Shown here: in pieces, positions 14,567 to 41,144 of the stretch
Numbering within the stretch: the first letter of the stretch is position 1
How the letters are laid out: every line of letters starts with the position of its first letter
From: Phycisphaerae bacterium
Lineage (GTDB): Bacteria > Planctomycetota > Phycisphaerae > SM23-33
Direction of reading: 5' to 3'
Assembly: GCA_049510055.1 (NCBI GenBank)
Contig: JBEKZI010000003.1
Span: 10,576-74,575 of the forward strand
DNA: 64,000 nt
The notes under the pieces: generated by a model
What the model saw: the letters and a program-made list of their open reading frames with translations, nothing else
Told to the model about the DNA's origin: nothing
Databases searched by the model: none
Position numbers and translations under genes: made by a program

Positions 14567-14618
14567 ATAAAGTCCTCGCCGGCCGCGCCGGTCGGGAATA
14601 TTTTTTCACACCCCCGCG

Positions 14619-15971: not shown

Positions 15972-16002
15972 GGCCTAACCTCGATTTTTCTTGTCGCGGC
16001 GG

Positions 16003-18183: not shown

Positions 18184-18204
18184 GACACTGTCTCCTGTCT
18201 ATCG

Positions 18205-21802: not shown

Positions 21803-21815
21803 GGGAGGCTCCTTG

Positions 21816-24884: not shown

Positions 24885-24895
24885 GGAGAGTGATC

Positions 24896-26641
<1,746 letters not shown>

Positions 26642-26656
26642 GCTGCCTGTGAAAAA

Positions 26657-26694
26657 AAGGTGGCGGGGCTCCTGTCCCGCCACCTTCATATTTA
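26657..26694. terminator. Bidirectional intrinsic terminator between convergent fhs and the gspK-like gene
   Basis: GGTGGCGGGG-ctcctgt-CCCGCCACC perfect stem, flanked by an A-run (gaaaaaaa) and a T-rich tract (ttcatattt). Confidence 0.6.
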
Positions 26695-26712
26695 AAGCGT
26701 TATTCTGCCGGC

Positions 26713-29196
26713 CTACTTCAGCTCGGTGAACAGCAGCACCCGCGGCTTGGTGGCGGCCGTGGTGCAATTGCTGCGGTCGATCACGGCCACGTATCGCCGG
26801 TAGGGGTCCGTGGACAGGGGGGCCGCGGAGCTGCGGCCCGCCGGCACCACCTGCACGCGGATGAAGGCGATGTACACGTCGCTCCGCACGGTCACCTGAT
26901 TGGCCAACCAGCTATAAAGCGTGTAATACTTGATCGGGTCGCCGGAGGGATAGGTCGACAGGCCGTCATCGCTGCCGCTAACGCTGGGATCCACGGCATA
27001 GTTGTTAGGCGGCTTATTGCTGTTGTAGTAGTTATTGGCTGACATATTGGCCTCGTGCAACGGAATGGCCACTTCGCCGGCACAGACAAAGCCGCGCTGA
27101 ATCCGCAGATTGGTGATGCCGGTGGTGCTGGCCGCCCGAGTGCTGTAATCATGGCCGTTTGCCGCCATGGTCATGTCGCGATAGGCGATGATCTCATCGA
27201 CCATCGTGTTCGCGTCAGTTATTGACAAGGACGCGATGCCGGGCAGGCATTTGAGGACCGCACGCGGGGCCGTGTTGATGTTGATCTGGCCTTGGATGTT
27301 GTAGTTGGGGTCCGGCGGCAGGAGATTGAAGTACTCGCTGACGGCGCAGCCCAGCGGCACGGCCGGAAAGGCCCCGGCAGGCGTCGACAGCGATACGGTT
27401 CCTGCCGGTCCAACGGTGAGGATGCGCATCATGTCGCCCAGGCTGATCATGGGGCCGTTGCGGACATAAACCGGCGTGGGAGTCCCGCTTGTGGGCAGGA
27501 ATGGATTGGGTAGGCCCATCTTGGGTCCACTGGGGAGCGTGTAGTCATAACCGCTAGGGTCGCTATAATTAGGGTCGGTGACGATGGTGTTGGAGTCGAG
27601 TATACGATAGCTTTCTACGCTGTAGCCGGCGGTACTGAGAACGTCGTTACGGAAGGCGGCCATCCAGCGGGACGAATTGGCGCTGGGGGGCGGCATGGTG
27701 AGTGCCGGTGTCTGGTCGACACAGACCGTCCCTCCACCGTTTGGGTCTGTCCATATGATTTGTTGGACTCCGTCAAGGGCCAGCGAGGCCACCAGACGTG
27801 AGGCGGGGTCTGGCATATTGGGGTCGCCGGTGGGTGTCGTCTGTACGGAAGAATCGGAGATGAGAAAGCGTCCTCCATTGCCGGGGATGGACTTGCCCGT
27901 GAAGGATGTGCCACCCTGGATGCTGTAGTTATCCAGGAGGATGGTATTGACGTAAGGATTGATGAGTTCCACAGCGGATATTGATGACGTGTTTGCATCG
28001 GCGTCGGATGTTTTCTTCCAGAACACCTTGGACACGAACGGATGCCGCGCCACGCCGTAAACGTAGGTGTTAGCCGGAACGTTAGAATCCAAGATATTCA
28101 CGTCCAGCCGGATCACCGCGTTGGGATCCACGTTGAGGTAGTTCTTCAGGTTCACCACGAGCTGGGCGGCCTTGATCTGGTTGCTGTTGGAGTCGGGGGG
28201 CAGCGGGGCGGTGGGATAGTAAGCTTGAAGCATAGCCCGAAAGGCGCTATACATGTTGGCATCACTCGCAAGAGGGTTGGGATCCTGCTTGAACTGTGTG
28301 GCGCCCGAACGGTAGGTCCACAGGGGGCTGAGGGTCTTGGAGGATGAGACGGTCGTGAAGTTGAAAGACCCTTTCGTGGCTATAAGATTACCCACTGTAG
28401 CCAATCGTCCGACGACCGTGTTGGGGTCCACGTTGGGGTCCGACAGGTGGCCTAGGGCCAGCATATCGCCCATGTCGTAGAGGCCGCTGCTTCGACTGCT
28501 CGCCACAGTGCCGGCATTGGCCAGGAGGGCGGCCATGTTGCAGTCGGAGGCGTCCATGACGTGGACGGCGTTGGCGTCCCGGGTGGTGTTGGCTATGTTG
28601 ACGTTCAGTAGGCCGGCGGCGTCGATCATCCGCACGGCCGCGAAGAACTTGTTACCCTGGCGGTCGGTGAGACCCGTGTCGAACAGGTAGGCGTCGCTGA
28701 CGCTATCGCCATCCGTATCCACCACAAGGTTCGGGTCGACATTGGGGTCTACGGTATTGAAATTATAGGTGTCGAACGTCGCACTCACGCCGGACATGTG
28801 CGAGACATGAGGCCACTTGCGGGGCGTGCTGTTGTCACGCTCGATGCTGGCCAGGGCGCTGTCGAACCATTGATTCGGATCAACGGAGGTGACTCCATTG
28901 CTCGCCTCGGCAGGGTAATCGATCATCTGCCGCTCGGCGATGCTGGGGTCGGCGTTGCAATTGCCGTAGATCACGTTGGAGGCGTTGATGTACAAATCCG
29001 CCACGCGATTGGCCAGGAGGCGGTCCAGGACGCTTTCGGCCACGTGGCGCTGGGGGGCGGTGTCGGCCATGGCCTGGCTGGTCTGGCGGTCCAGGCGGCT
29101 GACCAGCAGCAGCATCGAGCCCAGCATGGCGATGATCGTCAGCAGGCCGATCACCAGCAGCAGCACCGAACCGCGATGTCTCTTGTTTTGTTTCAT
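26713..29196 (-). CDS. Giant GspK-like minor pseudopilin (827 aa) with N-terminal transmembrane anchor
   Basis: 'RHRGSVLLLVIGLLTIIAMLGSMLLLVS' is a GspK-type non-canonical prepilin N-terminus. Last gene of the pseudopilin operon. 11 DPN tripeptides. Confidence 0.55.
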   Translation of the reverse strand: MKQNKRHRGSVLLLVIGLLTIIAMLGSMLLLVSRLDRQTSQAMADTAPQRHVAESVLDRLLANRVADLYINASNVIYGNCNADPSIAERQMIDYPAEASNGVTSVDPNQWFDSALASIERDNSTPRKWPHVSHMSGVSATFDTYNFNTVDPNVDPNLVVDTDGDSVSDAYLFDTGLTDRQGNKFFAAVRMIDAAGLLNVNIANTTRDANAVHVMDASDCNMAALLANAGTVASSRSSGLYDMGDMLALGHLSDPNVDPNTVVGRLATVGNLIATKGSFNFTTVSSSKTLSPLWTYRSGATQFKQDPNPLASDANMYSAFRAMLQAYYPTAPLPPDSNSNQIKAAQLVVNLKNYLNVDPNAVIRLDVNILDSNVPANTYVYGVARHPFVSKVFWKKTSDADANTSSISAVELINPYVNTILLDNYSIQGGTSFTGKSIPGNGGRFLISDSSVQTTPTGDPNMPDPASRLVASLALDGVQQIIWTDPNGGGTVCVDQTPALTMPPPSANSSRWMAAFRNDVLSTAGYSVESYRILDSNTIVTDPNYSDPSGYDYTLPSGPKMGLPNPFLPTSGTPTPVYVRNGPMISLGDMMRILTVGPAGTVSLSTPAGAFPAVPLGCAVSEYFNLLPPDPNYNIQGQININTAPRAVLKCLPGIASLSITDANTMVDEIIAYRDMTMAANGHDYSTRAASTTGITNLRIQRGFVCAGEVAIPLHEANMSANNYYNSNKPPNNYAVDPSVSGSDDGLSTYPSGDPIKYYTLYSWLANQVTVRSDVYIAFIRVQVVPAGRSSAAPLSTDPYRRYVAVIDRSNCTTAATKPRVLLFTELK

Positions 29197-29212
29197 GTTC
29201 GCACCTATCTCA

Positions 29213-30043
29213 CTACCGCGGAACAGGACAGATTACCTCGTAGTCCATGTAGTCCTTGTTGGGGTCGTTCCCCGTCTTGAGGCGGAAGTTGACCTTAATG
29301 GCCGGAGGAAGGGGGTATGGACTGGCCGAGTTGGGGTCTTCAAAAGCCGTAGTCGTCCAAAGTTGAAGATTGGTCGCAGTGGTCGTGACCCAGGTGTTGC
29401 CGGTCGGGTTCCACCAAGACACCCTGAACTGAGCGCACGAGCCAGCTAGCAGCGACCAAAAGCCGTTAGTGTCCAGTGCGACGGTCTTGGGGATGTTGGG
29501 GTCGGCGCAATACGTTGGCATTTGGTTGACGGTGTCAATGCGAGAGGGGCAATTGGGGTCGTATTGCCCCAGCCAGGTGTTCTCTACGTCGAGCGTAGTG
29601 GTCGCGGCGCCGGGCAGGAGCAAGGTAGCCTTGCGCCATAGATTGCCGTTGGCATCCAGGCCATAGGCGATCCGAGCGGCGTTGGCGACGGAGTCTTTGG
29701 TCGTGGAAGTCGTGCCGGTGAAGGTGCCCACGGCCGTGAAGACCAGGCGATTGTTGGGGTCGGTGGCGGGGTTATTGGGGTCGTACACGGCCAGGAAGCC
29801 CTGGGGCGACAGGCGTGCCATGTCGTCGCGGAGGACCTGGGCGATGGCCGAGGCGGAGGCGTTGGCCTGTATGAAGGCGTTGGACATGTCCGACACCGTT
29901 CGGGTCTGCGCCAGGATCGTGCTGAAGGCCACCATGATGAGGGCCAGTATGCCCATGGACACCAGCAGTTCGACCATCGTCATGCCATGGCTTGGTCGCC
30001 GGGCGGGTGAGTGAGCGTCAAATTGTGCCGAACGCCTTCTCAT
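29213..30043 (-). CDS. GspJ-like pseudopilin (prepilin-type N-terminal domain)
   Basis: '...SHG|MTMVELLVSMGILALIMVAF'. Confidence 0.55.
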   Translation of the reverse strand: MRRRSAQFDAHSPARRPSHGMTMVELLVSMGILALIMVAFSTILAQTRTVSDMSNAFIQANASASAIAQVLRDDMARLSPQGFLAVYDPNNPATDPNNRLVFTAVGTFTGTTSTTKDSVANAARIAYGLDANGNLWRKATLLLPGAATTTLDVENTWLGQYDPNCPSRIDTVNQMPTYCADPNIPKTVALDTNGFWSLLAGSCAQFRVSWWNPTGNTWVTTTATNLQLWTTTAFEDPNSASPYPLPPAIKVNFRLKTGNDPNKDYMDYEVICPVPR

Positions 30044-30052
30044 GTTTTAGGC

Positions 30053-30784
30053 TCACGGATTCAGGAGCACGTCGGCCACCACGACCGCCGTGGCCGGACT
30101 TTTGGCCGTCGCGCTGGGATCCACGATTACAAAGGCACCGCCGCCGGTTGCGCTCAGCGCGCGGTCTAATGTTCCTTTATTGGGATTGCTGGGATCGCTG
30201 GAATCGCGGTCGATAATCTTGGCCCAACTGCCGTCGGCGGCCACGATGAGAGGGGAACCTATGGGCGCGATGGTTCCTAAAGCCGCCACGGTCACGCCAT
30301 TGGAGGTGGTCGTGCTAAAGGTGGTGGACAGGGCATTCACGATATTTGCGCTGGATTGCTTGTTGTAGGAGACGATCACAAGCTGGACCGGGCCACTGGG
30401 GTCAGCCGTATCCAGCCTTCGGCCTAGGACCACGAATCCTCGCGTGGCGGCGCCGGGCGCGCTGGGGTCGTAGAGGTAGTGTTGAAGCTCTCTATCAATG
30501 GGGGGACTAGCCATGCTTTCATCCACCACGCAAACGAGGGAGCCGGCCGTTTGGTTGATGGCGGAGTTGTGCAGCATCGTCTGGGCCACGGCCAGGCCGT
30601 TTTCGGCGACGATGGTGCCGATGGAATCCTGACCGGACTGCTCGTTGAGCCTGATGGCGGCGGGGAACAGGGCCGCGGCCATCGACAATCCGATGGCCAG
30701 GATGCCCAACGCCAGCAGCAACTCTATAAGGGAGAACGCCCGTCGCGCTCGATTCCGTCGGCCAATATGGCGTGCGCGTCTCAT
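30053..30784 (-). CDS. GspI-like pseudopilin
   Basis: 'RRA|FSLIELLLALGILAIGLSMAAALFP'. Confidence 0.55.
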   Translation of the reverse strand: MRRARHIGRRNRARRAFSLIELLLALGILAIGLSMAAALFPAAIRLNEQSGQDSIGTIVAENGLAVAQTMLHNSAINQTAGSLVCVVDESMASPPIDRELQHYLYDPSAPGAATRGFVVLGRRLDTADPSGPVQLVIVSYNKQSSANIVNALSTTFSTTTSNGVTVAALGTIAPIGSPLIVAADGSWAKIIDRDSSDPSNPNKGTLDRALSATGGGAFVIVDPSATAKSPATAVVVADVLLNP

Positions 30785-30788
30785 GGGC

Positions 30789-31544
30789 CTATCTCCCTAA
30801 AACCGTGCCGGTGTAAAGGTTGATGGCCAATAGCTGCCCGTAATTGGTCAGGTAGGTGGGCTTGTCGGTGGCCTTTAGGAACTTGTCATAGTCAAACAGC
30901 ACCGCCGCCTTGACGGAACTGTTGCAGGCGGAGTTATCGGCGTCGGAAGAATTCCACAGGTAAGCCCTGCTGGTCGTCGAGTTTGCAAAGCCGGCTGTTG
31001 TGTTGTCGAAAGTTATGGTCTTTCCGTCCTCCAATTGCCCATTGGACGCGAACACGAAGGTCAGAGTGGTGAAAAGATTCAGTTGGTTGGGGTCAGGACG
31101 GTAGTTTCCACCGGCCACACCGCCGAAGGCCATCGAGGCGGGCATTTTTTGGGGCGCATAGCCCTCGGCCAGGATGAAGCGATTGGGGTTGGCGCTGTCG
31201 TTGGGGTCATGCCAGATGATGGCCGAGAAGCACGTGTTGGTCAGGTTCTTGAGGTACGGGGCGTTGGTGTTGTTGGCGTCGGCCAGTTGGATGTGAACGC
31301 CGGCGTAGGTGCGGTTCTGGATAGCCACCATGCGTGCGGCGGCGAGTTGCCCGACCAGGAGGTTATAGGCCTGGGCGTCGGAACCGGCGGTGAACAGGCC
31401 GACGATGCTAGGCAGCACGACGGTCGCCATGAGGCCGATGATGAACAGCACCACCAGCAGCTCCACGAGGGTGAAAGCTTCGGCCCGCAGGCTGGGGCCC
31501 GAAGGAACCTTGGTCCATCGCATTGTCGTCGTACGTCCCGTCAT
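30789..31544 (-). CDS. GspH-like pseudopilin
   Basis: 'SGPSLRAEA|FTLVELLVVLFIIGLMATVVLP'. Confidence 0.55.
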   Translation of the reverse strand: MTGRTTTMRWTKVPSGPSLRAEAFTLVELLVVLFIIGLMATVVLPSIVGLFTAGSDAQAYNLLVGQLAAARMVAIQNRTYAGVHIQLADANNTNAPYLKNLTNTCFSAIIWHDPNDSANPNRFILAEGYAPQKMPASMAFGGVAGGNYRPDPNQLNLFTTLTFVFASNGQLEDGKTITFDNTTAGFANSTTSRAYLWNSSDADNSACNSSVKAAVLFDYDKFLKATDKPTYLTNYGQLLAINLYTGTVLGR

Positions 31545-31556
31545 GGTCCAACCGCC

Positions 31557-32096
31557 TCATTGACTTTCGTCCGAGCGAATATCGTCCTCGCCGTTGGGAT
31601 CGCCGGCGGATGTCCCGCCGAACTTTCCGTCCGGACCTTCGGAGATGACCACGGGCTTGCCGCCCAATCCGCCATTGGGGTCATAGTGCATGTCATGTCC
31701 CCAGGAATCCTTGACGGCGGAGTTCGAGTCGCCGGTCCAGGCATCTTTGGGCAGCTTCAGCAGTACGTCCGTAGCTGCTTTGGCGGCGGCGGCCTGAGCG
31801 CTAGGGTCTTTTCCAGTGAGGTAACGCATCAGGTCTATTCCGCTGTTATTGGGATCGGTAACAGGCGGATATCCTTGGGGGATGTTGGCGTCGTGGAAGG
31901 CCTGGATGGCCTGCATCAGGACCTTTTCGGTGGAGGCGGTTTCGCGAGAGGCGGCGGACTTCATCACGTATCCGGCCACGCCGGCGACGATGGCCGCCAG
32001 CACGCCCAGGATGAAGATCACCACCAGCACCTCGACAAGCGTGAATGCTTTGGTCGAGCGGCGGGCCGCCGCGTTATTTGTCCGAATGCTCCTCAC
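31557..32096 (-). CDS. gspG: GspG-type major pseudopilin
   Basis: 'STKA|FTLVEVLVVIFILGVLAAIV' and C-terminal 'ISEGPDGKFGG...DD' Ca-site-like motif. Confidence 0.75.
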   Translation of the reverse strand: MRSIRTNNAAARRSTKAFTLVEVLVVIFILGVLAAIVAGVAGYVMKSAASRETASTEKVLMQAIQAFHDANIPQGYPPVTDPNNSGIDLMRYLTGKDPSAQAAAAKAATDVLLKLPKDAWTGDSNSAVKDSWGHDMHYDPNGGLGGKPVVISEGPDGKFGGTSAGDPNGEDDIRSDESQ

Positions 32097-32120
32097 GTTC
32101 TCACCTCGCAGGTCCGCCGA

Positions 32121-32960
32121 TTACGGCAGTTGTGCGCTGGGATCGAAGTTGTCCACGTCGTCCGCCGTGCCGTACTTTTTGTCCGGCCCGGCCGAGATCA
32201 GTATGTAACTGTCGCTGTTGTATGGCTTGTAGGTGCCACCCGTAAGATTCGCTACTCGGTAGTCCTGAATATAAGCGGCAAATTTCCCACTATCGGCGAT
32301 GGGGTCACGCGAAGGAGTCAGGAAATGGGTGTTGTCCGATTCGACGTAGCTTCCGCTTGCATTGGGCTCAAAGTACAGCACGGGCCAGTTGAAGGCATCC
32401 ACGACAACAGGGGCAGAAGGATTTCCACCGCTCCCGTTCCAGCTAAAGTTCTTCAGTGTGTTGGGTGAGCTGATGGTGGTCTTGCTGATGTCGATGAACG
32501 GCCCAAAGCTTGGATCAGAAGTATTAGAATCATAAACATTGCCATTAGGGAAACCTTTCGTGCCCAACAGGTCCTGACCGGCCAGGGCCAACACAAGCGT
32601 TTGAGCCCCGTCGACGGCGACAGTGTTGAGCGTGCCGGTCGAAGGGGGGTATACCTTGCCGAGTTTCGTTTCGATCTTGTACATATCCAGGCCGGCGCTG
32701 AGGGTATGGATGAGGGCCTTGGAGGAGGTGGACTTGGCGAACGTACGCGCGTAGTCCAGGCTGGGGACCAGGATGCCGGCCAGAAGGATGATGATGGAAA
32801 TGACCACCAGAAGCTCCACGAGCGTGAAGCCTTTAGCCCTGAGGGGCCGACTCGAAGGGCCTTCGGCTCTGAGGTCTTCGACACTGAGCTCAGACGAAGT
32901 GCTCAGGCTCGAAGAGGCCGCGAGGCGAAGGGCGAAGCGTTTGTCGGTTTTAGACTTCAT
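32121..32960 (-). CDS. GspG-family pseudopilin paralog with 44-aa leader
   Basis: '...AEGPSSRPLRAKG|FTLVELLVVISIIILLAGILVP'; C-terminal 'ISAGPDKKYGTADDVDNF'. Confidence 0.7.
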   Translation of the reverse strand: MKSKTDKRFALRLAASSSLSTSSELSVEDLRAEGPSSRPLRAKGFTLVELLVVISIIILLAGILVPSLDYARTFAKSTSSKALIHTLSAGLDMYKIETKLGKVYPPSTGTLNTVAVDGAQTLVLALAGQDLLGTKGFPNGNVYDSNTSDPSFGPFIDISKTTISSPNTLKNFSWNGSGGNPSAPVVVDAFNWPVLYFEPNASGSYVESDNTHFLTPSRDPIADSGKFAAYIQDYRVANLTGGTYKPYNSDSYILISAGPDKKYGTADDVDNFDPSAQLP

Positions 32961-32972
32961 AAGTCACCTCCG

Positions 32973-33947
32973 CTATGGAAGCAGATTGTTCCCGGTAATG
33001 GGGAAGTTCGTGATGTCGTCCTGCGTGCCGAACAGTCCGTCCGGCCCCGCGGATATGAGCAGGTAGGATTTCGGATTCATCGGCTGGGCGGAACTGGTGA
33101 TAGCTGGATTGTGGATGAAGCCGTTGAAACCCGTTAAGCTTTTTCCATCTCCAAAGGTTACGGTGCCCGTGTTGGCGATCCAGTCGTCGGTCTTCTTGTT
33201 CCCCGTCCAGGTTTTGTAGAAGGGCAGGTTGTCGTTGTAGGCGTACTTGTTCATCCCTGTGTTGGCGTCCGTGGCCGCGTAGTACAGGACAGGCCTTCCG
33301 AAGTCGTCGATAATGGCGGGAATGTTGGGGTTGGCCTCCGTGGAGCCGACGTAAATATTTTGATTCGAACCGCTTGTGGTGAGGTTCTGGATGGTGGCCT
33401 TGCTCGTGTCGATGAAGGGGCCTTCCCGGGCCGTGTTGGGAGTGCCGGTGGTCAGATTGTAATAATTCTGAATTTGGTTGTTCGAGTTGATGCTCTCAAA
33501 CCCCGGCGGAGGCGGGCCAAGCAGGTCCGCTCCGGCCAGGCCCCAGACGAGCATCTGGGCGCCATACACCTTGGTGGGGTGGGCCTTGCTGGAATCCTGC
33601 CCAGCACCCGAATAGGGGTTTCCTCCCTCATCGGTGTCCCAATAGGAGGGGGGGTACGCATCGCCAAGGGACTGGTCGTTGCGGAACATTTCCAGGCCGC
33701 CGCTGATGGTCTTGATCAGGGTCGTGACGCGGGCCTTCCGCGCAAGCACTTTGGCCCCGTTGAGGGAAGGCATGATGATGGTGACCAGCAGGGCGATGAC
33801 GGCGATCACGACCAACAGTTCCACCAGGGTGAAAGCGTTAGCCCTGAGGGCTCGGATCGAAGGGCCCTCGGCCCAGATGCGGCGCGTCGAGGAGTTTTTT
33901 GCTGTTTGCGTTTTCATGGCTAGCACCTTTCGCATGAACGACCGCAT
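32973..33947 (-). CDS. GspG-family pseudopilin paralog with long leader
   Basis: '...AEGPSIRALRANA|FTLVELLVVIAVIALLVTIIMP'; C-terminal 'ISAGPDGLFGTQDDITNF'. Abuts the gspF stop. Confidence 0.7.
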   Translation of the reverse strand: MRSFMRKVLAMKTQTAKNSSTRRIWAEGPSIRALRANAFTLVELLVVIAVIALLVTIIMPSLNGAKVLARKARVTTLIKTISGGLEMFRNDQSLGDAYPPSYWDTDEGGNPYSGAGQDSSKAHPTKVYGAQMLVWGLAGADLLGPPPPGFESINSNNQIQNYYNLTTGTPNTAREGPFIDTSKATIQNLTTSGSNQNIYVGSTEANPNIPAIIDDFGRPVLYYAATDANTGMNKYAYNDNLPFYKTWTGNKKTDDWIANTGTVTFGDGKSLTGFNGFIHNPAITSSAQPMNPKSYLLISAGPDGLFGTQDDITNFPITGNNLLP

Positions 33948-35210
33948 TTATCTTCCAGTTCCAAGTCCTTGGATCATGGACACCAGGGGCATGAACAGGG
34001 CGATGACGATGGTGCCGATGATCAAGCCCAACATGATGATCATGACCGGTTCCAGCAGGTGGGTCAGGTTGCCCACGAGGCCGTCCACTTCTTCGTCGTA
34101 GGTGTCGGCGACCTTGTTGAGCATTTTGTCCAGTTCGCCGGTTTCCTCGCCCACGTCGATCATGTTGATCACCATGGGATCGACGATTCGGGCGACCCGC
34201 AGAGGGGCGGCGAAACTTTCGCCCTCGCGGATGCCCTCGCGGACCTTGCCCAGCGCCCGGGAGTACACGTCGTTTCCGGCGGTCTCGGCGGTGATGGTCA
34301 GCGCCTCCAGAATGGGCACGCCGGCCGCCAGCAGCGTTCCCAGCGTGCGGCTGAACCGCGCAATGGACGTCTTGCTGATGATCATGCCGAAGATGGGCAC
34401 GCGAAGCTTCAGAAGGTCCAGTATGTACCGTCCGCCTTGAGAGAACCGGATCAGCTTCAGGAGGACCACAACGAGCACGGGAATGCCCAAAAGGACCGCC
34501 CAGCCGCCTTTGACGACCCAATCGCTGGTGTTCAGGAGAAAGCTGGTGATGGCCGGAAGCTTAACGCCCATGCCTTGAAAGATGTCTTTGAACTTAGGGA
34601 TAACGAACGTCAGCATCATGCCCATGATGGCGCAGGCGAAGCTGATGACGGCGACCGGATAGATCATCGCGCCCTTGACCTTGCTCTTGAGGGATTGGCT
34701 TTTTTCCATGAAGTCGGCCAGGCGGAAGAGGATGGTGTCCAGCACGCCGCCCACCTCGCCGGCGCGAACCATGTTGGTGTACAAGCGGTCGAAAGCCTTG
34801 GGATGCCGCGCCATGGCCTCCGACAGCGTGGCGCCGCCTTCGACGTCGTCGGCCACGTAGCGGATGGCGATGCGCATCATGCCGGGCTTCTGCTGCTGCT
34901 CCAGAATGCGGAGGCTTCGCAGAATCGGCAGGCCCGCGTTGATCAGCGTGGACAGCTGTCGCGTGAACTGGGTGATCAATTTGGTGGACACGCCGCTGAC
35001 CTTACGGCGCTTGGCGCCGGGGGCCGCTGCCGCGGCAGCGGCGCGGCCTTTGCCGGCGGCGGCCTTCTTGGCGGTCTTTTCCTTGATCTTCGTGGGGAAG
35101 TTGCCCATCGCCCGGACCTTGGTGATGGCTTCTTCCGAGGACGCGGCGTTCACCTCGCCCTTGACGGACTGGCCCACGCTGTTCATGGCTTCGTACGTGT
35201 AAACGGGCAT
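33948..35210 (-). CDS. gspF: Type II secretion/type IV pilus platform protein GspF/PilC
   Basis: Two T2SF repeats; 'MPVYTYEAMNSVGQSVKGEV' start; three TM segments. Confidence 0.9.
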   Translation of the reverse strand: MPVYTYEAMNSVGQSVKGEVNAASSEEAITKVRAMGNFPTKIKEKTAKKAAAGKGRAAAAAAAPGAKRRKVSGVSTKLITQFTRQLSTLINAGLPILRSLRILEQQQKPGMMRIAIRYVADDVEGGATLSEAMARHPKAFDRLYTNMVRAGEVGGVLDTILFRLADFMEKSQSLKSKVKGAMIYPVAVISFACAIMGMMLTFVIPKFKDIFQGMGVKLPAITSFLLNTSDWVVKGGWAVLLGIPVLVVVLLKLIRFSQGGRYILDLLKLRVPIFGMIISKTSIARFSRTLGTLLAAGVPILEALTITAETAGNDVYSRALGKVREGIREGESFAAPLRVARIVDPMVINMIDVGEETGELDKMLNKVADTYDEEVDGLVGNLTHLLEPVMIIMLGLIIGTIVIALFMPLVSMIQGLGTGR

Positions 35211-35250
35211 GGCCGAACTCCTTTGTGGCAGTCGGGTCGCCGGAGCGGCC

Positions 35251-37017
35251 CTATTCTGTGTCCTCGTAAATGGTTTGCGAGACCACTTCCTCGATGGTCG
35301 TCAGACCGTCGTAGATGGCCAGCAAGCCGCTGTCGCGGAGGGTTCTCATACCCTTCTTGCGGGCGGCCTCGCGAAGCACGTTGGTGCTGCTGCGCTTCAT
35401 GATCAAGTCCCGTATGTGATCGTCCAACAGCATGATCTCGAAGATGGCCACCCGGCCGCTGTAACCGGTGCCGCGGCAGACGTCGCAGCGTCGCCCGTGG
35501 AAGAACGTCCTGCCGGCGACCTGGTCGGGCGTCAGGTTCAGCTCCATCAGCGCTTCCTCGGTCGGCATGTAGGTCTCCTTGCACCGCTGGCAAATCCGAC
35601 GCACGAGGCGCTGGGCGACGATGCCTTCCAGCGTCGCCGTCAACTTGAAGGGTTCCATGCCCAGGTCCAGCAGACGGGCGATGGTGGAGGGGGCGTCGTT
35701 GGTGTGCACGGTGGAGAACACCAGGTGCCCGGTCAGCGACGCCTGCACGGCGATTTCGCCAGTCTCCTGGTCGCGGACCTCGCCCACCAGCACGATGTCG
35801 GGGTCCTGCCGCAGGAAGTGCCTCAGGCAGCGGGCGAACGTCAAGCCGATGTCGTCCTTGATCTGGACCTGCACCAGACCGTCGATGTCGTACTCGACGG
35901 GATCCTCCGCCGTGAGGATTTTCACGCCGACGTCGTTCCGCTCGTTGAGGGCCGAGTACAGCGTGGTGGTTTTGCCCGAACCGGTCGGACCGGTGACGAT
36001 CACGATTCCGTTGGGCCGATTGATGAGCTGGCGGAACAGTCGAATGTCGTCTTCGCGCATGCCCAGACGGTCCAGCTCCAATTGCACCTGGGAGCGGTCC
36101 AGCACGCGAAGCACGATGCTTTCGCCGAACATGGTCGGCAACACGGCGACGCGCAGGTCCACGGGCGAGTTGTTGATCGTCAGCGGAATGCGACCGTCCT
36201 GCGGCATGCGGCGCTCGGCAATGTTCAGGTGAGACATGACCTTGATGCGCGACGCGATGGCCGCCGCGATGGATTTGGGAGGCGGCAGCATTTCGTACAG
36301 CAGGCCGTCGATGCGGTAACGCATCTTGAACTCGTCCTCGAACGGTTCGAAGTGGATGTCCGAGGCGCGGTCCTTGATGGCCTGCATGAGCACCATGTTC
36401 ACCAGCCGCTTGACGGGATTGGCCTCCGCGGCGCCGCGAAGGGTGTCCAGGTCGATGCTTTCCCCGCGGTTTTCCAGTTGCGACAGCTGCTCGTCGCCGA
36501 CGATCTCGTTGATCAACTCCCCGATGGACCCCATGGTGGTGGTGGCCTGGGTCTCTAAGCCGTAATGCTTGGCCAAGGCCGCTTCCAACTGTTCGCCGTC
36601 GGCGATGCGAGTCACGATCTCGAATCCCGTCAGCGTCCGCAGATCGTCCGCCGCACGAAAGTTGTCCGCCGAGGCCAGGGCGACCACCAACCGCTTGGTG
36701 GAAGGGATGAATTCCAACGGCAGGACCTTGTAGTTGTTGGCCATCTGAGGGGGGATGTGGGCGATGACGTCGGGAGGGATTTCCACAGACGACAGGTCGA
36801 CGTATTCCATGCCCGCCTGGAAACCCAGGGCCAGGTTGCGAGTCCTATCATCGATATATCCCAGGTCGACCAGAATTTGGCCGATAGGCCCCCCGCGCTG
36901 CTTTTGGACCTCGATGGCCTGGTTGACCTGGTCGCGGGTCACCTTGCCCATCTTCAGCAAGACCCGTCCCAGGACGCGCCCTTTCAGCTCTTTGACGTTG
37001 TAGGTTTCAACAGCCAT
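35251..37017 (-). CDS. GspE/PilB-family assembly ATPase with N-terminal T2SSE_N (MshEN-like) domain
   Basis: Walker A 'GPTGSGKTTT'; Asp/His boxes; tetracysteine 'CQRCK...CDVCRGTG'. Confidence 0.9.
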   Translation of the reverse strand: MAVETYNVKELKGRVLGRVLLKMGKVTRDQVNQAIEVQKQRGGPIGQILVDLGYIDDRTRNLALGFQAGMEYVDLSSVEIPPDVIAHIPPQMANNYKVLPLEFIPSTKRLVVALASADNFRAADDLRTLTGFEIVTRIADGEQLEAALAKHYGLETQATTTMGSIGELINEIVGDEQLSQLENRGESIDLDTLRGAAEANPVKRLVNMVLMQAIKDRASDIHFEPFEDEFKMRYRIDGLLYEMLPPPKSIAAAIASRIKVMSHLNIAERRMPQDGRIPLTINNSPVDLRVAVLPTMFGESIVLRVLDRSQVQLELDRLGMREDDIRLFRQLINRPNGIVIVTGPTGSGKTTTLYSALNERNDVGVKILTAEDPVEYDIDGLVQVQIKDDIGLTFARCLRHFLRQDPDIVLVGEVRDQETGEIAVQASLTGHLVFSTVHTNDAPSTIARLLDLGMEPFKLTATLEGIVAQRLVRRICQRCKETYMPTEEALMELNLTPDQVAGRTFFHGRRCDVCRGTGYSGRVAIFEIMLLDDHIRDLIMKRSSTNVLREAARKKGMRTLRDSGLLAIYDGLTTIEEVVSQTIYEDTE

Positions 37018-37038
37018 GGGTCTATAGCCTCAAGTGGG

Positions 37039-38178
37039 TTATTGCTCTTCCTTGGCTTCCTTGGCTTCCACCAGCGGTTTGCTCGACGGCGGCGGAATCG
37101 GTTTGCCGCTTTCCGTGGCCTCGATCTTTTCCTGGAGATCGCCGGGGTTCTGGCTGCGGTCGATGGCCTCGATCTTGTCTATCTTCCCCTCCGACCAGAG
37201 CCGGAAGAGGTGGTCGTCCAGCAGTTGCATGCCGTACTTTTTTCCAGTCTGAATGGAGGAGGGAATGCGGAAGACCTTGTTCTCGCGGATCAGGTTGGCC
37301 ACGGCGTTGGTGACGTACAGGAACTCAAAGGCCGCGACCATGCCCTTGATGTCGCAGCGGGGCATCAGGGCCTGGCACAGCACCGCGATGATCGACTCCG
37401 ACAACTGCACGCGGATCTGCTCCTGCTGGTTGGTGGGGAAGATGTCCACGATGCGCGTCACCGTCCGGTGGGCGGTGGTGGTGTGAAGCGTGCCGAACAC
37501 CAAGTGGCCGGTCTCGGCTGCACGAAGGGCCGCCTCGATCGTCTCCAGGTCGCGGAGTTCGCCCACCAGGATCACGTCGGGGTCCATACGCAGCACGCGC
37601 CGCAGCGCTTCGCTGAAGCTCGGCACGTCCGGGCCCACCTCGCGCTGATTGACCAGGGACTTCTTGTGATAGTGGTAATACTCGATAGGGTCTTCGATAG
37701 TGACGATGTGCCGGTCGAACGTCTCGTTGATGTAATTGATCATCGTCGCCAGCGTAGTGGTCTTTCCGGAACCCGTAGGCCCGGTCACCAGGAAGATCCC
37801 TCTGGGGCGGCGGCAGATGTTTTGGACGATTGGCGGCAGGCCGATTTGCTCGAACGTCAAGAGCTTGGAGGGAATCAGACGCAGGCAGATGGAGATGTTC
37901 CCGCGCTGCATGAACACCGACGTTCTGAATCGGCCCGCCGTGCCGAATTCAAAACCGAAGTCCGTGCCGCCTTGCTCCTGAAGTTCCTGCTGGTTTCGTT
38001 CCGGCGTGATGGACTTCATCAGGGCGATGGTGTCCTCCGGTTCCAAGGGCTTGGTCTCCAGCGAACGCAACCGCCCGTGCAGTCTAAGTGTCGGTGCGCG
38101 CCCGACATAGAGGTGCAAGTCACTGGCACCTCGTTTCACGCACGTTTCAAGCAGCCTGTCAATATGGATTGTGGACAT
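37039..38178 (-). CDS. pilT: PilT-type retraction ATPase
   Basis: 'MSTIHIDRLLETCVKRGASDLHL', 'GPTGSGKTTT', 'GHLVFGTLHT'; 379 aa with no N-terminal extension. Confidence 0.9.
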   Translation of the reverse strand: MSTIHIDRLLETCVKRGASDLHLYVGRAPTLRLHGRLRSLETKPLEPEDTIALMKSITPERNQQELQEQGGTDFGFEFGTAGRFRTSVFMQRGNISICLRLIPSKLLTFEQIGLPPIVQNICRRPRGIFLVTGPTGSGKTTTLATMINYINETFDRHIVTIEDPIEYYHYHKKSLVNQREVGPDVPSFSEALRRVLRMDPDVILVGELRDLETIEAALRAAETGHLVFGTLHTTTAHRTVTRIVDIFPTNQQEQIRVQLSESIIAVLCQALMPRCDIKGMVAAFEFLYVTNAVANLIRENKVFRIPSSIQTGKKYGMQLLDDHLFRLWSEGKIDKIEAIDRSQNPGDLQEKIEATESGKPIPPPSSKPLVEAKEAKEEQ

Positions 38179-38297
38179 CTGATCCTCTCCTGCTTATTAT
38201 TCGCCACTTACACTGTTTTCGGCAGAGTACCCCAAAAATTCCCTCGACTGTTCGTTAAATCTAACTTCATTTTAGGCATACTGTTACAGAAAAACTC

Positions 38298-40016
38298 TCA
38301 TTCGAGAACAAGTTCACCGGCCTGAGCGTTCGCCAAAACTTCCTCCGCCGTCGTGATTCCGTGGAGAATTTTGAGTCTCCCGTCGGACAAAAGATTTCTC
38401 ATGCCGCTAGCCATCGCAGCCTGTCTCAGGTCCGACAGAGTCGACCCTCGGAAGGCCAGCTCGCGGAGCTCGTTATTCATGACCAGCAGCTCAAAGATTC
38501 CTTGACGGCCCCGATAGCCTGTTCCGTGGCAGTTTTCGCAACCTTTTCCTTTGTAGAAGGTTGCATTTGCGGCTTCCTCCTTGCCAAACCCGAGCATCCT
38601 GATCATTTTTTGATCGACATCTTTGTCAACGCCCTTGCATTTGGGGCAGATGACTCGGATCAGTCGCTGGGCCATGATGGCCTGGATACTGCTTGCGACA
38701 AGGAACGGCTTGACCCCCATATCGATCAGGCGCGTGATGGCGGATGGGGCATCGTTGGTGTGAAGTGTACTAAAAACCAAGTGTCCAGTTAAAGCAGCCT
38801 GGATAGCAACTTCAGCGACCTCTAAGTCTCGGATTTCGCCGACCAGGATGATGTTCGGTGCTTGGCGCAGCATGGCTCGAAGGATTCGAGCAAAGGTGAG
38901 ATTAATGGCCTCGTTGATCTGGACTTGGTTGACGCCGGTGAAATTGTACTCAACGGGATCCTCAGCCGTGATGATCTTGCGGTCGGGGCGGTTGAGTTCA
39001 TTGATAGCCGCATAGAGGGTGGTGGTCTTGCCGGAGCCGGTGGGGCCGGTTACGAGGAACATGCCGTTGGGGCGTTTGATGATCCTTATGAACCGTTCGT
39101 AGTCGTCCTGCTCGAATCCCAGGGCGGGAATGCCCAGGCGGACGCTTTCAGGCCGCAAAATACGCAGCACCATGCATTCCCCGTGGTAGGCGGGCAGGGA
39201 CGAGACACGGAAGTCGATCTTGCTTCCGCCGATGTCCATCTTGATTCGACCGTCCAGGGGCAGGCGTTTCTCGGCCAGGTCCATGCCGGACATAATCTTG
39301 AAGCGGTTGATCACGGGGCCTTGCATCCGCTTGGGAATGGGTTCGCGGTCGATGCACACGCCGTCCACGCGGTAACGGACGCGGACACGGTTGGTCATGG
39401 GTTCCACGTGGATGTCCGACGCCCTCATTTCGACCGCCTGGGTGATGAGCATGGTCACCAGCCGCACGATGGGGGCGGCGCCGTCGTCTTCCAGCAGGTC
39501 CAGCCCGTGGGCTTCCCCCGGGGCCACGTCGATGGTTTGCCGGCGAATCTCGTCCACGGCGGCGTCGATGCTCACCTCCGCGGCCGCCGGATTGGCCTTG
39601 TTGAGGTAGGCGTGGAACTTCGCCTTGGTCGTCAGGCAGGGCTGGATTTCGCAATTCAGCCGGAATCGCAGCATGTCCAGGGTCTCAAGGTCCATCGGGT
39701 CGGTGATGATTACCTTGAGCTTGCCCGCTTCGCGGTTCAGGGGCAGGACCATTCGGTTGCGGACAACTTCTTCGGGCAGGAGGTGGGCTTCGGGGGCTTG
39801 GGTGTCTGGCTTGAGGTCGAAGTACTCTATCTCGTACTGATACGCCATGGCCTTGGCGATGTCCTCCTCGCTGGCCAGGTTCATCGCGACCAGGGTTTCG
39901 CCGAGGCGCATGCCCTTTTTTCGACCCTGGGCCATGGCCTCGTCGATGCTCTTCTGGCTGGCCACGCCCCGCTCGACCAGGATTTCACCGAGACGTTTTC
40001 GCTTCTTTTTCGCCAT
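38298..40016 (-). CDS. Second GspE/PilB-family assembly ATPase with N-terminal domain
   Basis: 'GPTGSGKTTT', 'GHLVFSTLHTNDA', 'CPKCKG...CENCHGTG'; 572 aa. Confidence 0.85.
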   Translation of the reverse strand: MAKKKRKRLGEILVERGVASQKSIDEAMAQGRKKGMRLGETLVAMNLASEEDIAKAMAYQYEIEYFDLKPDTQAPEAHLLPEEVVRNRMVLPLNREAGKLKVIITDPMDLETLDMLRFRLNCEIQPCLTTKAKFHAYLNKANPAAAEVSIDAAVDEIRRQTIDVAPGEAHGLDLLEDDGAAPIVRLVTMLITQAVEMRASDIHVEPMTNRVRVRYRVDGVCIDREPIPKRMQGPVINRFKIMSGMDLAEKRLPLDGRIKMDIGGSKIDFRVSSLPAYHGECMVLRILRPESVRLGIPALGFEQDDYERFIRIIKRPNGMFLVTGPTGSGKTTTLYAAINELNRPDRKIITAEDPVEYNFTGVNQVQINEAINLTFARILRAMLRQAPNIILVGEIRDLEVAEVAIQAALTGHLVFSTLHTNDAPSAITRLIDMGVKPFLVASSIQAIMAQRLIRVICPKCKGVDKDVDQKMIRMLGFGKEEAANATFYKGKGCENCHGTGYRGRQGIFELLVMNNELRELAFRGSTLSDLRQAAMASGMRNLLSDGRLKILHGITTAEEVLANAQAGELVLE

Positions 40017-40439
40017 CTCTCACCCGTTGTCGCGCCTGGCCGGGCCGTGCCGGCGGAGGCGCGCCGCGCGTCGGAGCTTAGGAAGCCCCGCGGGCGGGGC
40101 AGCTTTCGTGGGGGCTAAGCGGCGGGCTTCTGCCCAGGCACTTTAGTCACCATCCTTGGAAACCGCCGGCCCCTCGCACCCGTAAGCTGGGTGCGTCAGG
40201 GCCCTGCCTTAGGGGGTCCGTCAACGCATTGTACAGAAATTGATAAAGCGCGGTCAAGCTCCACCGCCAGCACCAGCGTTTTATCGCTGTTTTCCTCACG
40301 GCACCTGGCGAAAAACTTGTCCGACGCGTTCCCTCAAGGCAGGGACTCTTGTTCCTATTTCATCGACCTTCCGTCCCGCCTCCTTCCCTAAAACATTCCT
40401 AAAACGCAAGGGTTTCCGCCCATTCCTGCGGTCTTGGGC

Positions 40440-40985
40440 TCACATCAGGGGCCGTTGTCCGTGGGCTTTTCGGATCGCCTGGGCGGCTATCAGGGCGTGC
40501 CGTTCCTGTTCCAGCAGGCCGACGAGGTTGCCGGTCGAAATGCCGACGTGCGCGGCGGCATCGGCCAGGCGACCTTCGTAATGGTCCAGGACGTCCAACA
40601 GGTAGGCCGCCACCGGCCAATAGCGGCGGTCGCGCCGGCCCACTTGCAGGCGCAACCGGTCCGCCCCCGGGCCTCCGCGGGCCGTAAACAGGCATTCGCA
40701 CACGGTCGGCGGAGGTGGGGCGGCAGGGTCGACGCGGCGGCGCAACGTGCAAGCCAGGTTCATGCGGAGTCGTTGCAGGGCCAACTGCTTGTTTTCGTGC
40801 TGGCTGCGGCTCTGGTCACCGTGGGTGGTGATGCCGGTGGGTTTGTGCCTCAGCCGCACGGCCGAGGATACCTTGTTGCGATGCTGGCCGCCGGGGCCGG
40901 AGGACTTGTAGGTGTGGACATCGCACTGGGCCAGCAGGGCCTTGTCGTCCATGTCCAGGGAGTCTCGCCCGTCCATGGCGGCCAT
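40440..40985 (-). CDS. GGQ-domain peptidyl-tRNA hydrolase (ArfB/RF-1-domain-like ribosome rescue factor)
   Basis: 'YKSSGPGGQHRNKVSSAVRLRH' GGQ motif. Confidence 0.6.
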   Translation of the reverse strand: MAAMDGRDSLDMDDKALLAQCDVHTYKSSGPGGQHRNKVSSAVRLRHKPTGITTHGDQSRSQHENKQLALQRLRMNLACTLRRRVDPAAPPPPTVCECLFTARGGPGADRLRLQVGRRDRRYWPVAAYLLDVLDHYEGRLADAAAHVGISTGNLVGLLEQERHALIAAQAIRKAHGQRPLM

Positions 40986-41144
40986 GATAGGGACCGGCGT
41001 CCCCGCCCGCCAGCGCCGCGGGCGGAAAGGACGGCAACTTTTCTGCGCCGGCAGTTTTGCACCTTGTGAAGAACATCGAAGTGGTGTTAGAATGTCTTAA
41101 CGGTTGCAGGACGACAGCCACCCACCAGCTCACCGATCACGATC

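What the first reader, a model, noticed from the sequence alone, without database searches (positions are those of the whole stretch)
26713..40016. Hybrid T2SS/T4P operon: two PilB/GspE-like ATPases plus PilT, triple GspG paralogs, G-H-I-J-K order, and no secretin, GspC, L or M
The pseudopilin order gspG-H-I-J-K is T2SS-like. A dedicated PilT retraction ATPase and a second full-length assembly ATPase are hallmarks of dynamic type IVa pili. No secretin, prepilin peptidase or inner-membrane GspC/L/M/PilMNOP genes occur in the 13 kb. Compartmentalised PVC cell envelopes may use a different outer conduit. The machine's composition looks non-canonical.
Basis: partly seen in the sequence, partly recalled or inferred. 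Interest (0 to 1): 0.6.

Follow-up and report, generated by a model that had tools for sequence, protein, structure and literature searches.

The report
Planctomycete two-motor retractile pilus operon
This is an 11-gene operon for a pilus-like filament machine, with two assembly motors, one retraction motor, a platform protein and seven pilin-like proteins; the layout recurs across Planctomycetota, and a published transposon screen found an operon annotated with the same layout to be essential in Planctopirus limnophila, though its function is unknown.

Summary
Window 40016 to 26713 (minus strand) is one tight operon. It encodes a PilB-like ATPase (E1), PilT, a second PilB-like ATPase (E2) and PilC/GspF. 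Then come three cysteine-free GspG-like pilins, three minor pilins and an 827-aa tip-type protein. No secretin, prepilin peptidase or GspC/L/M gene lies in the operon. None was found among the large ORFs of the 64-kb window, nor by tblastn in 1.48 Mb of window plus related loci.

"Hybrid" is a fair description. The motors are type IVa-pilus-like and do not group with GspE. The fibre proteins are type II secretion-like. Missing parts in one locus do not prove a part-less machine, because type IVa pilus genes are usually scattered.

The layout is conserved. A genome scan found 475 relatives of the platform gene. The best 80 are all Planctomycetota, and 44 of 57 informative loci show E1-PilT-E2-F.

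Published Tn-seq of Planctopirus limnophila reports an operon annotated with the same layout (Plim_0410-0401) as essential. An unlinked PilM is also essential, and two secretins are individually dispensable. I could not test sequence orthology to that locus.

Verdict: a new, uncharacterised variant of a known kind.

The parts
38298..40016 (-). E1: first PilB-like assembly ATPase (572 aa). N-terminal MshE-type c-di-GMP motif, Zn-binding CxxC...CxxC, and the clade signature RQAPNIILVGEIRD.
   Evidence: Pfam T2SSE 441 bits plus MshEN. NF053729 scores 54 bits against a cutoff of 38. PilB model 594 bits (cutoff 676) and GspE model 570 bits (cutoff 630). Best PDB hits are Thermus PilF and Geobacter/Myxococcus PilB. 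The E1 clade has 100% bootstrap support. The APN signature occurs in 46 loci.
37039..38178 (-). PilT retraction ATPase (379 aa) with an AVANLIRENK motif.
   Evidence: TIGR01420 scores 445 bits against a cutoff of 319. Motif at residue 295.
35251..37017 (-). E2: second PilB-like assembly ATPase (588 aa), with the canonical RQDPD...GE.RD motif.
   Evidence: Pfam T2SSE 454 bits plus MshEN. NF053729 scores 49.5 bits against a cutoff of 38. Best PDB hits are Myxococcus and Geobacter PilB at 511/509 bits over the full length. It is 40% identical to E1. The E2 clade has 100% bootstrap support.
33948..35210 (-). PilC/GspF inner-membrane platform protein (420 aa).
   Evidence: Pfam T2SSF, two domains. 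GspF model 385 bits (cutoff 424); PilC models about 373 bits (cutoff 700). 475 relatives found in the genome collection.
32973..33947 (-). G1: large GspG-like prepilin (324 aa). Leader of about 37 aa, A|FTLVELL site, no Cys, C-terminal LISAGPDGLFGTQDDITNF.
32121..32960 (-). G2: paralog of G1 (279 aa, 42% identical). G|FTLVELL site, no Cys, C-terminal LISAGPDKKYGTADDVDNF.
31557..32096 (-). G3: small GspG-like prepilin (179 aa).
   Evidence: Weak Pfam T2SSG hit. TIGR01710 scores 45 bits against a cutoff of 89. Collinear 28% identity to E. coli GspG, including the PDG...DDI motif. Longest PDB coverage is to PulG, 5wda.
30789..31544 (-). Minor pilin, GspH/FimU position (251 aa).
   Evidence: N_methyl domain. 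Weak GspH hit of 31 bits over the N-terminus only.
30053..30784 (-). Minor pilin, GspI/PilV position (243 aa).
   Evidence: N_methyl domain. Weak PilV hit.
29213..30043 (-). Minor pilin, GspJ/PilW position (276 aa).
   Evidence: N_methyl domain. Weak hits to PilV and Verru_Chthon cassette protein C.
26713..29196 (-). K-like giant terminal pilin (827 aa). RG|SVLLLVIGLL N-terminus without Glu5, a DTDGDxxxDA motif, a beta-sandwich insertion (residues about 363-515, which I equate with the lamin-tail-like region hit in homologs), and the HhH motif ININTAP..LPGI..IIAYRD.
   Evidence: No family reached the curated cutoff. 10 of 13 homologs hit Pfam T2SSK and 11 of 13 hit HHH_3 at E up to 1 (best 1.8e-5); the window protein itself scores E 0.077. 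The N-terminus aligns with E. coli GspK. AF2 model pLDDT 72.5, pTM 0.77. No significant PDB fold match. The family has 2,211 clusters at E<=1e-30.
40017..40439 (-). 423-nt upstream region with one promoter-like site at 40257-40228 (TTGACC-18-TACAAT).
   Evidence: Consensus scan only. No Rfam match anywhere in 26000-41500.

Best explanation
The operon encodes the cytoplasmic and inner-membrane core, plus the whole filament set, of a Planctomycetota-specific branch of the type IV filament superfamily.

Proposed mechanism (inferred from established type IV pilus and type II secretion mechanics; nothing was measured here):
1. A prepilin peptidase encoded elsewhere cleaves the six class III leaders.
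2. The K-like protein, with the three minor pilins, forms the tip or priming complex on the PilC/GspF platform.
3. The two PilB-type hexameric ATPases, E1 and E2, polymerise the GspG-like pilins G1-G3 beneath that tip. Both carry an MshE-type c-di-GMP-binding N-terminus, so both are probably gated by c-di-GMP.
4. PilT depolymerises the fibre. The fibre is therefore dynamic and retractile rather than a static secretion piston.

E1 and E2 are old paralogs that have each been kept. E1 carries a clade-wide change (DPD to APN) just upstream of the catalytic Glu. I take this to mean the two are specialised, for example for different pilins or for initiation versus elongation, rather than redundant.

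Alignment proteins (PilM and partners), the peptidase and any outer-membrane conduit are encoded elsewhere. My preferred function is a retractile surface fibre whose large, variable tip protein binds external ligands.

The layout matches the annotation of the Planctopirus limnophila operon Plim_0410-0401, which is essential by Tn-seq. If the two are orthologous, the machine serves a core function in at least part of the phylum.
For: Shown here:
- Domain content and gene order, with gaps of 0-119 nt between genes.
- PilT is above its family cutoff, and NF053729 (c-di-GMP motif) is above cutoff in both E1 and E2.
- Full-length best PDB matches are type IVa PilB and PilF.
- On a neighbour-joining tree, the E1 and E2 clades each have 100% support and never join GspE (0-2%). 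E2 joins Myxococcus/Geobacter PilB in 56% of bootstraps.
- The catalytic motifs are intact in both. The APN signature occurs in 46 E1-position ATPases, against DPD in 105 others.
- G1-G3 have no Cys and carry the GspG C-terminal motif.
- The K-like protein lacks Glu5 and its family carries the T2SSK/HhH motif.

Conservation:
- 475 genome loci hold a relative of F. The best 80 are all Planctomycetota.
- 44 of 57 informative loci have E1-T-E2-F, and 35 of 45 have a K-like gene downstream.

From the literature:
- Plim_0410 (E), 0408 (E), 0407 (annotated only as a type II secretion system protein; I take it to be F) and six 'hypothetical' genes, 0406-0401, are essential. Plim_0409 (PilT) is 'unclear' (PMC10632474).
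- PilM (Plim_0076) and the next two genes are essential. Secretins Plim_0794 and Plim_3839 are non-essential.
- Type IVa pilus systems are typically multi-locus (PMC6668835).
Against: - No fibre, ATPase activity, c-di-GMP binding or retraction was measured.
- Orthology to the Planctopirus operon rests on matching annotation and gene count, not on a sequence comparison. I could not retrieve that genome.
- H, I, J and K assignments are positional. The K-like model found no significant structural match to GspK, and the family profile hit only a ComEA-type HhH in the PDB.
- The ATPase tree uses few reference sequences, neighbour-joining only, and has weak deep nodes (56-57%).
- The pilins look like short pseudopilins of a periplasmic endopilus, which fits a secretion role as well as a surface pilus.
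- A subgroup of loci lacks the ATPases within 10 kb upstream of F.
Confidence: 0.6

Rival explanations
1. It is an ordinary type IVa pilus system for adhesion or twitching. The operon is just one of several loci, and pilMNOPQ and pilD lie elsewhere. The second PilB is a spare paralog.
For: PilB-like, PilT, PilC and four minor pilins are the standard core. Type IVa pilus genes are normally scattered. PilM exists elsewhere in Planctopirus.
Against: The major pilins are GspG-type with no disulfide-bonded D-region. E1 is conserved as a separate clade with its own signature in 46 loci, so it is not a recent spare copy. Neither ATPase reaches the PilB equivalog cutoff. Essentiality of the look-alike Planctopirus operon is unexpected for a motility or adhesion pilus.
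Confidence: 0.2
2. It is a type II secretion system. A short periplasmic pseudopilus of GspG-like subunits pushes folded proteins through a secretin encoded elsewhere. PilT merely resets the piston.
For: GspG motif and collinear similarity to E. coli GspG and PulG. The best NCBIfam hit for F is GspF at 385 bits. T2SSK/HhH motif in the last gene. The Planctopirus genes are annotated 'type II secretion' and are essential, which loss of secretion of key envelope or nutrient enzymes could explain.
Against: No GspC, L, M or D gene in any of about 90 loci. The ATPases never group with GspE and have the MshE-type N-terminus. To my knowledge, classical type II secretion systems have no dedicated PilT. 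PilM, a type IVa-type partner, is the essential unlinked gene in Planctopirus, and both secretins are individually dispensable there.
Confidence: 0.12
3. It is a DNA-uptake (competence) pilus. The tip protein's ComEA-like helix-hairpin-helix binds DNA, and PilT retraction reels it in, as in Thermus.
For: The only PDB sequence similarity of the K-like family is to the ComEA HhH. Sources name homologs 'ComEA family DNA-binding protein'. PilT is required for pilus-mediated DNA uptake in known systems (my own knowledge).
Against: GspK carries the same HhH-like module and, to my knowledge, has no role in DNA uptake. No comEC or dprA gene turned up in the Pfam scans of 28 large ORFs elsewhere in the window. 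Competence would not explain essentiality.
Confidence: 0.05

Closest known systems
Planctopirus limnophila locus Plim_0410-Plim_0401 (Rivas-Marin et al. 2023, PMC10632474)
   Same: Same annotated order: T2SS protein E, twitching-motility protein (PilT), T2SS protein E, T2SS protein (probably F), then six Planctomycetes-restricted 'hypothetical' genes in one putative operon. Sedimentisphaerales-like loci L065 and L096 have exactly six genes after F: two G-like, three minor pilins and K.
   Different: The window has seven genes after F, with a third G-like paralog. Sequence orthology was not tested here. The paper did not identify the six genes as pilins, and it gives essentiality only for Planctopirus (class Planctomycetia), not for Phycisphaerae.
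Type IVa pilus machines (Myxococcus xanthus, Geobacter, Pseudomonas)
   Same: PilB-PilT-PilC core. Full-length best matches of E1/E2 are PilB. PilT is above its family cutoff. Four minor pilins, the last lacking Glu5.
   Different: Two PilB paralogs flank PilT. The pilins are GspG-type without Cys. There is no PilY1 gene; instead there is an 800-1,660-aa K-like tip protein. PilMNOPQ are not linked.
Thermus thermophilus type IV pilus / DNA translocator (PilF, PilA1-4, ComZ)
   Same: PilF is the best PDB hit of E1 (498 bits) and carries repeated MshEN-type N-domains. Thermus pilins resemble T2SS pseudopilins (title of PMC5131608). A large tip-associated DNA-receptor pilin is described (PMC6561018, listed).
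   Different: To my knowledge Thermus has one assembly ATPase and a dedicated PilQ/PilMNOW set. The K-like protein shows no detectable similarity to any solved structure.
Type II secretion system (E. coli Gsp, Vibrio Eps, Klebsiella Pul)
   Same: GspF-like platform; GspG-like major subunits with the C-terminal motif I identify as the GspG calcium site; a major-then-minor pilin order ending in a K-like protein with the T2SSK/HhH motif.
   Different: No GspC, D, L, M or O. ATPases lie outside the GspE clade. PilT is present. Three major-type pilins. The K protein is 2.5-5 times longer than E. coli GspK (327 aa).
'Generic' type IV filament systems of Denise et al. 2019, including the chlamydial T2SS (PMC6668835)
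   Same: That survey describes systems with an ATPase, a platform and a pilin that fit no named type. [quoted passage not shown]
   Different: The chlamydial system lacks minor pilins, whereas this one has a full set plus PilT. The main text of the survey does not mention Planctomycetes (0 occurrences).

Membership tests
Type II secretion system (Gsp) | GspE-clade ATPase | tested here: not met
   TIGR02533 scores 570 and 590 bits, below the 630 cutoff. Bootstrap support for E1+GspE is 0% and for E2+GspE 2%.
Type II secretion system (Gsp) | Secretin GspD and the assembly proteins GspC, L and M encoded with the system | tested here: not met
   None in the operon, none among the large ORFs scanned in the 64-kb window, and none in 92 related loci. 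The rest of the genome could not be searched.
Type II secretion system (Gsp) | GspG major pseudopilin with the C-terminal DG...DDI motif and no disulfide | tested here: inconclusive
   The motif is present in G1-G3 and there are 0 Cys. TIGR01710 scores only 41-45 bits against a cutoff of 89.
Type II secretion system (Gsp) | GspK minor pseudopilin (pilin fold with an inserted alpha domain, no Glu5) | tested here: inconclusive
   No Glu5, and the N-terminus aligns with E. coli GspK. Weak T2SSK hits in 10 of 13 homologs. No significant fold match: the XcpGHIJK model scores E 0.77. No GspK hit by profile.
Type IVa pilus | PilT retraction ATPase | tested here: met
   TIGR01420 scores 445 bits against a cutoff of 319. 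AVANLIRENK motif.
Type IVa pilus | PilB assembly ATPase (equivalog level) | tested here: inconclusive
   TIGR02538 scores 594 and 611 bits, below the 676 cutoff. Best PDB hits are PilB/PilF. E2+PilB has 56% bootstrap support.
Type IVa pilus | Major pilin with a C-terminal disulfide-bonded D-region | tested here: not met
   G1, G2 and G3 contain no cysteine.
Type IVa pilus | PilM-N-O-P alignment complex, PilQ secretin and PilD peptidase in the genome | not testable with these tools
   Not in the window or the related loci. The rest of the source genome (a 1.07-Mb contig) could not be read. In Planctopirus an annotated PilM is unlinked and essential.
MSH pilus | MshE-type ATPase with an N-terminal c-di-GMP-binding motif, plus MshL and other msh genes | tested here: inconclusive
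   The motif model NF053729 is above cutoff in E1 and E2. No other msh-type gene was seen, and no MshE reference was available for the tree.
Planctomycete essential 'secretion' operon (Plim_0410-0401) | E, PilT, E, F followed by six or so Planctomycetes-restricted proteins in one operon | tested here: met
   The annotated architecture in PMC10632474 matches the window and 44 of 57 related loci.
Planctomycete essential 'secretion' operon (Plim_0410-0401) | Sequence orthology to the Plim proteins, and essentiality | not tested
Essentiality is known only for Planctopirus.

The most novel reading that the evidence does not exclude
The operon builds an essential, phylum-specific dynamic filament that does not depend on a classical secretin. 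It would either be a periplasm-spanning endopilus or be the fibre of the crateriform structures proposed to capture and import macromolecules. Two specialised assembly motors would drive it. E1 would be a functionally diverged partner marked by the APN substitution.
Probability: 0.2. Interest if true: 0.85.

Novelty: new variant of a known kind. Interest (0 to 1): 0.55.

Why it matters
[quoted passage not shown] An operon annotated with this layout is essential in the one planctomycete tested by Tn-seq, and its function is unknown.

Planctomycetes show unexplained macromolecule uptake and crateriform-associated fibres. A 2025 review says the players are 'still unknown'.

This analysis adds four things:
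- The six or seven 'hypothetical' genes can be read as a complete pilin set.
- The machine has two anciently diverged assembly ATPases plus PilT.
- E1 carries a one-motif signature (APN in place of DPD) that can be tested by mutagenesis.
- The tip-protein family is large, with 2,211 clusters at E<=1e-30.

Together these turn an anonymous essential locus into specific experiments. The locus is also a useful intermediate for understanding how secretion systems and pili diverged.

Tried and rejected
- The AF2 model of the K-like protein from a 13-sequence alignment was unusable (pLDDT 43). It was redone with 63 sequences (pLDDT 72.5).
- hhalign of the K family against E. coli GspK aligned only the N-terminal helix.
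- K-family profiles against PDB sequences hit only ComEA-type HhH motifs.
- Three routes to the Planctopirus sequences failed. A profile search with the K family added only two more distant hits and no named planctomycete. The genome scan returned only the 80 closest MAGs. A search from L065 showed that its 'Pirellulales' label is probably wrong, because the named relatives are Sedimentisphaerales.
- Cluster look-ups gave no organism names.
- A c-di-GMP riboswitch or other RNA element upstream was rejected: no Rfam hit.
- A DNA-level repeat as the source of the DPN motif was rejected: the codons vary.
- The first tree script timed out. The first support values were mis-rooted and were recomputed as unrooted splits.

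Full report
**1. What is in the sequence**

Window 40016 to 26713, on the minus strand, holds eleven ORFs. The gaps between them are 119, 21, 40, 0, 12, 24, 12, 4, 9 and 16 nt. The block ends convergent with formate-tetrahydrofolate ligase (24890-26641, plus strand). Upstream, a 423-nt gap precedes an RF-1-domain, ArfB-like gene (40440-40985).

**2. The motors**

E1 (572 aa) and E2 (588 aa) both have the full T2SSE ATPase domain, an MshEN domain, and the MshE-related c-di-GMP motif model NF053729 above its cutoff (54 and 49.5 bits against 38). Both fall below the equivalog cutoffs for PilB and for GspE.

Their best solved relatives over the full length are type IVa PilB of Myxococcus and Geobacter, and Thermus PilF. 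On the ATPase core alone, GspE and PilF score about the same. E1 and E2 are only 40% identical to each other. Each is 75-82% identical to its counterpart in another Phycisphaerae MAG.

I built a neighbour-joining tree on 338 core columns with 46 sequences and 200 bootstraps. The references were Myxococcus and Geobacter PilB, Thermus PilF, E. coli HofB, and three GspE proteins (E. coli GspE, EtpE and Vibrio EpsE). PilT served as the outgroup.
- E1 and E2 are each monophyletic, with 100% support.
- GspE is monophyletic, with 100% support.
- E1+GspE has 0% support and E2+GspE has 2%.
- E2 with Myxococcus/Geobacter PilB has 56%.
- E1+E2+PilB has 57%.

This is a small reference set and a simple method. 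The safe conclusion is 'not GspE, nearer PilB, two old paralogs'.

Walker A, the Asp box, the catalytic GE, the His box and the tetracysteine Zn site are intact in both. Every E1 ortholog reads RQAPNIILVGEIRD where E2, PilT, PilB, PilF, HofB and GspE all read RQDPD. Across the 80 related loci, that is 46 APN (plus one APD) against 105 DPD.

PilT (379 aa) is a clear family member, at 445 bits against a cutoff of 319, and carries an AVANLIRENK motif. The platform protein scores about equally on the GspF and PilC models and is below the cutoff of each.

**3. The filament proteins**

Six proteins carry a class III leader ending in G or A, followed by F/M-T/S-L/M-V/I-E-L.

G1 and G2 are 42% identical, and G3 is smaller. 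All three have no cysteine, and all end in the motif typical of GspG (LISAGPDGxxGTxDDIxNF; E. coli GspG has LLSAGPDGEMGTEDDI). G3 aligns collinearly with E. coli GspG, and its longest PDB coverage is to PulG. 'Triple GspG paralogs' is therefore a fair description, although all three are far below the GspG family cutoff.

The next three genes give only weak, N-terminal hits to GspH, PilV and a Verru_Chthon cassette protein. Their H/I/J labels are positional.

The 827-aa last protein matches no curated family. Four features point to a K-type tip pilin:
- Its N-terminus lacks Glu5 and resembles that of GspK.
- It has an HhH motif (ININTAP..LPGI..IIAYRD) that hits Pfam T2SSK or HHH_3 in 10-11 of 13 homologs.
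- Several blocks are conserved across the family.
- The AF2 model from a 63-sequence alignment (pLDDT 72.5, pTM 0.77) has a long N-terminal helix, two strands, a roughly 580-residue insertion, and three C-terminal strands.

However, Foldseek found no significant match, and the family profile does not find GspK. K-type membership is therefore unproven.

The family is large. It has 502 hits from one query, and 2,211 clusters at 50% identity with E<=1e-30. Lengths run from about 800 to 1,660 aa.

**4. What is absent**

- Pfam scans of the ten operon proteins with family hits found only ATPase, platform and prepilin domains, and the K-like protein matched nothing.
- Pfam scans of 28 other large ORFs across the 64-kb window found only metabolic and housekeeping genes (Wood-Ljungdahl enzymes, tRNA synthetases, LeuA, fucose genes), a porin and a PEP-CTERM protein.
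- tblastn with E. coli GspC, D, I, K, L, M and O against the window plus 92 related loci (1.48 Mb) gave no hit. GspE, F and G hit as expected.
- Clustering all ORFs of the 80 related loci found no recurrent flanking family other than the ArfB-like gene, which sits upstream in 11 loci.

**5. Conservation**

The identical E2 protein occurs on 17 metagenome contigs, one of them 1.07 Mb long.

A scan of one genome per species, using a platform-protein alignment, found 475 loci encoding a relative. The best 80 (59-77% identity) are all Planctomycetota MAGs, mostly labelled Phycisphaerae.
- 44 of 57 loci with enough upstream sequence show E1-PilT-E2-F collinear.
- 35 of 45 loci with enough downstream sequence show a K-like gene.
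- A minority have F, pilins and K without ATPases within 10 kb upstream.
- Sedimentisphaerales-like loci carry exactly six genes after F.

**6. Link to the literature**

Rivas-Marin et al. [quoted passage not shown] It comprises Plim_0410 (T2SS protein E), 0409 (twitching motility protein), 0408 (T2SS protein E) and 0407 (T2SS protein), followed by six proteins of unknown function restricted to Planctomycetes.

Their Tn-seq table calls nine of the ten genes essential and PilT 'unclear'. The same table gives:
- PilM (Plim_0076) and the two genes after it: essential.
- An A24 peptidase-domain protein (Plim_1841): 'unclear'.
- A second PilT (Plim_1933): non-essential.
- Secretins Plim_0794 (inside a Tad/Flp cluster) and Plim_3839: non-essential.

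The match in architecture to the window operon is striking, but I could not obtain the Planctopirus sequences, so orthology is inferred. Because there are two or three secretin-like genes, single-gene dispensability does not prove independence from a secretin.

Boedeker et al. 2017 saw 12-nm pili-like fibres on large crateriform structures that bind dextran. A 2025 review says the players in uptake are unknown. I found no paper linking these genes to those fibres.

**7. Interpretation**

The motors say 'dynamic type IVa-like pilus'. The subunits say 'pseudopilus'. [quoted passage not shown] I therefore read the locus as a lineage-specific variant rather than a recent chimera. The locus is incomplete by itself, as type IVa pilus loci usually are.

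The step-by-step mechanism in my best explanation is inferred from established type IV filament mechanics. Only the gene content, motifs, phylogenetic placement and conservation are shown here.

**8. Verdict**

The finding is a new variant of a known kind. The interest is moderate to high because of the probable link to an essential, uncharacterised planctomycete machine. It is limited by the untested orthology and by the inability to search the rest of the genome.

Noticed in passing
window 26713-32096 (G3, H, J and K proteins): The tripeptide Asp-Pro-Asn occurs 22 times (3, 2, 6 and 11 copies), against fewer than 1 expected from composition. It is often tandem (VDPNVDPN). The codons vary, so this is a protein-level motif. 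It is also frequent in close K homologs (P0004 has 16) but absent from distant ones (P0018 has 0). Its meaning is unknown.
   Followed up: partly
window 38298-40016 (E1), residues about 394-407: All E1-clade ATPases read RQAPNIILVGEIRD, where every other PilB, GspE or PilT protein examined reads RQDPD...GE.RD. Across the related loci that is 46 loci against 105 ORFs. This is a clade-defining change next to the catalytic Glu.
   Followed up: partly
window 40440-40985 (minus strand): A 181-aa RF-1-domain protein with a GGQ motif (ArfB model only 37 bits against a cutoff of 100) lies directly upstream on the same strand. The same gene family holds that position in 11 related loci. The conserved synteny is unexplained.
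   Followed up: partly
window about 10000-26641: A Wood-Ljungdahl-type gene set sits beside the pilus operon in what appears to be a peatland Phycisphaerae genome. It includes a pterin-binding protein, RACo, CdhD-like, an ACS/CODH beta subunit, Nuo51-like, a Prismane/CODH-family protein and formate-THF ligase (taxon; the peatland origin of sample Ga0187881 is my own recollection, not a tool result).
   Followed up: no
window 21423-23894 (plus strand): This 823-aa ORF has no family hit and overlaps the Prismane/CO-dehydrogenase gene on the minus strand (21816-23768). It is probably a shadow ORF of a GC-rich gene.
   Followed up: partly
window 26000-40000: The operon has lower GC (0.58-0.63) than its flanks (0.64-0.68). 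Plus-strand GC skew is strongly positive (up to +0.15) over 26-34 kb, the pilin and K-like genes.
   Followed up: no
L046, L057, L063, L072, L074, L089 and others: A subgroup of Planctomycetota loci has the platform gene followed by larger pilins and a 1,374-1,413-aa K-like protein, but no ATPase within 10 kb upstream. The motor genes must lie elsewhere in these genomes.
   Followed up: partly
L012 10001-13675 and 20051-22217: A 1,224-aa K-like relative with a Golvesin_C domain stands alone inside a glycosyltransferase and sugar-modification gene cluster. H- and I-like pilin genes lie 6 kb downstream.
   Followed up: no
L065 and many 'uncultured Planctomycetaceae/Pirellulales' records: The submitter's taxonomic label for L065 ('Pirellulales') conflicts with its relatives. 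Its K-like protein's closest named relatives are Sedimentisphaerales MAGs. Class-level labels in this set should not be trusted.
   Followed up: partly
window 2323-3819 and 58453-59799: A Porin_5 outer-membrane porin and a PEP-CTERM-tailed protein are present. Both fit a diderm envelope, and the second suggests an exosortase system.
   Followed up: no
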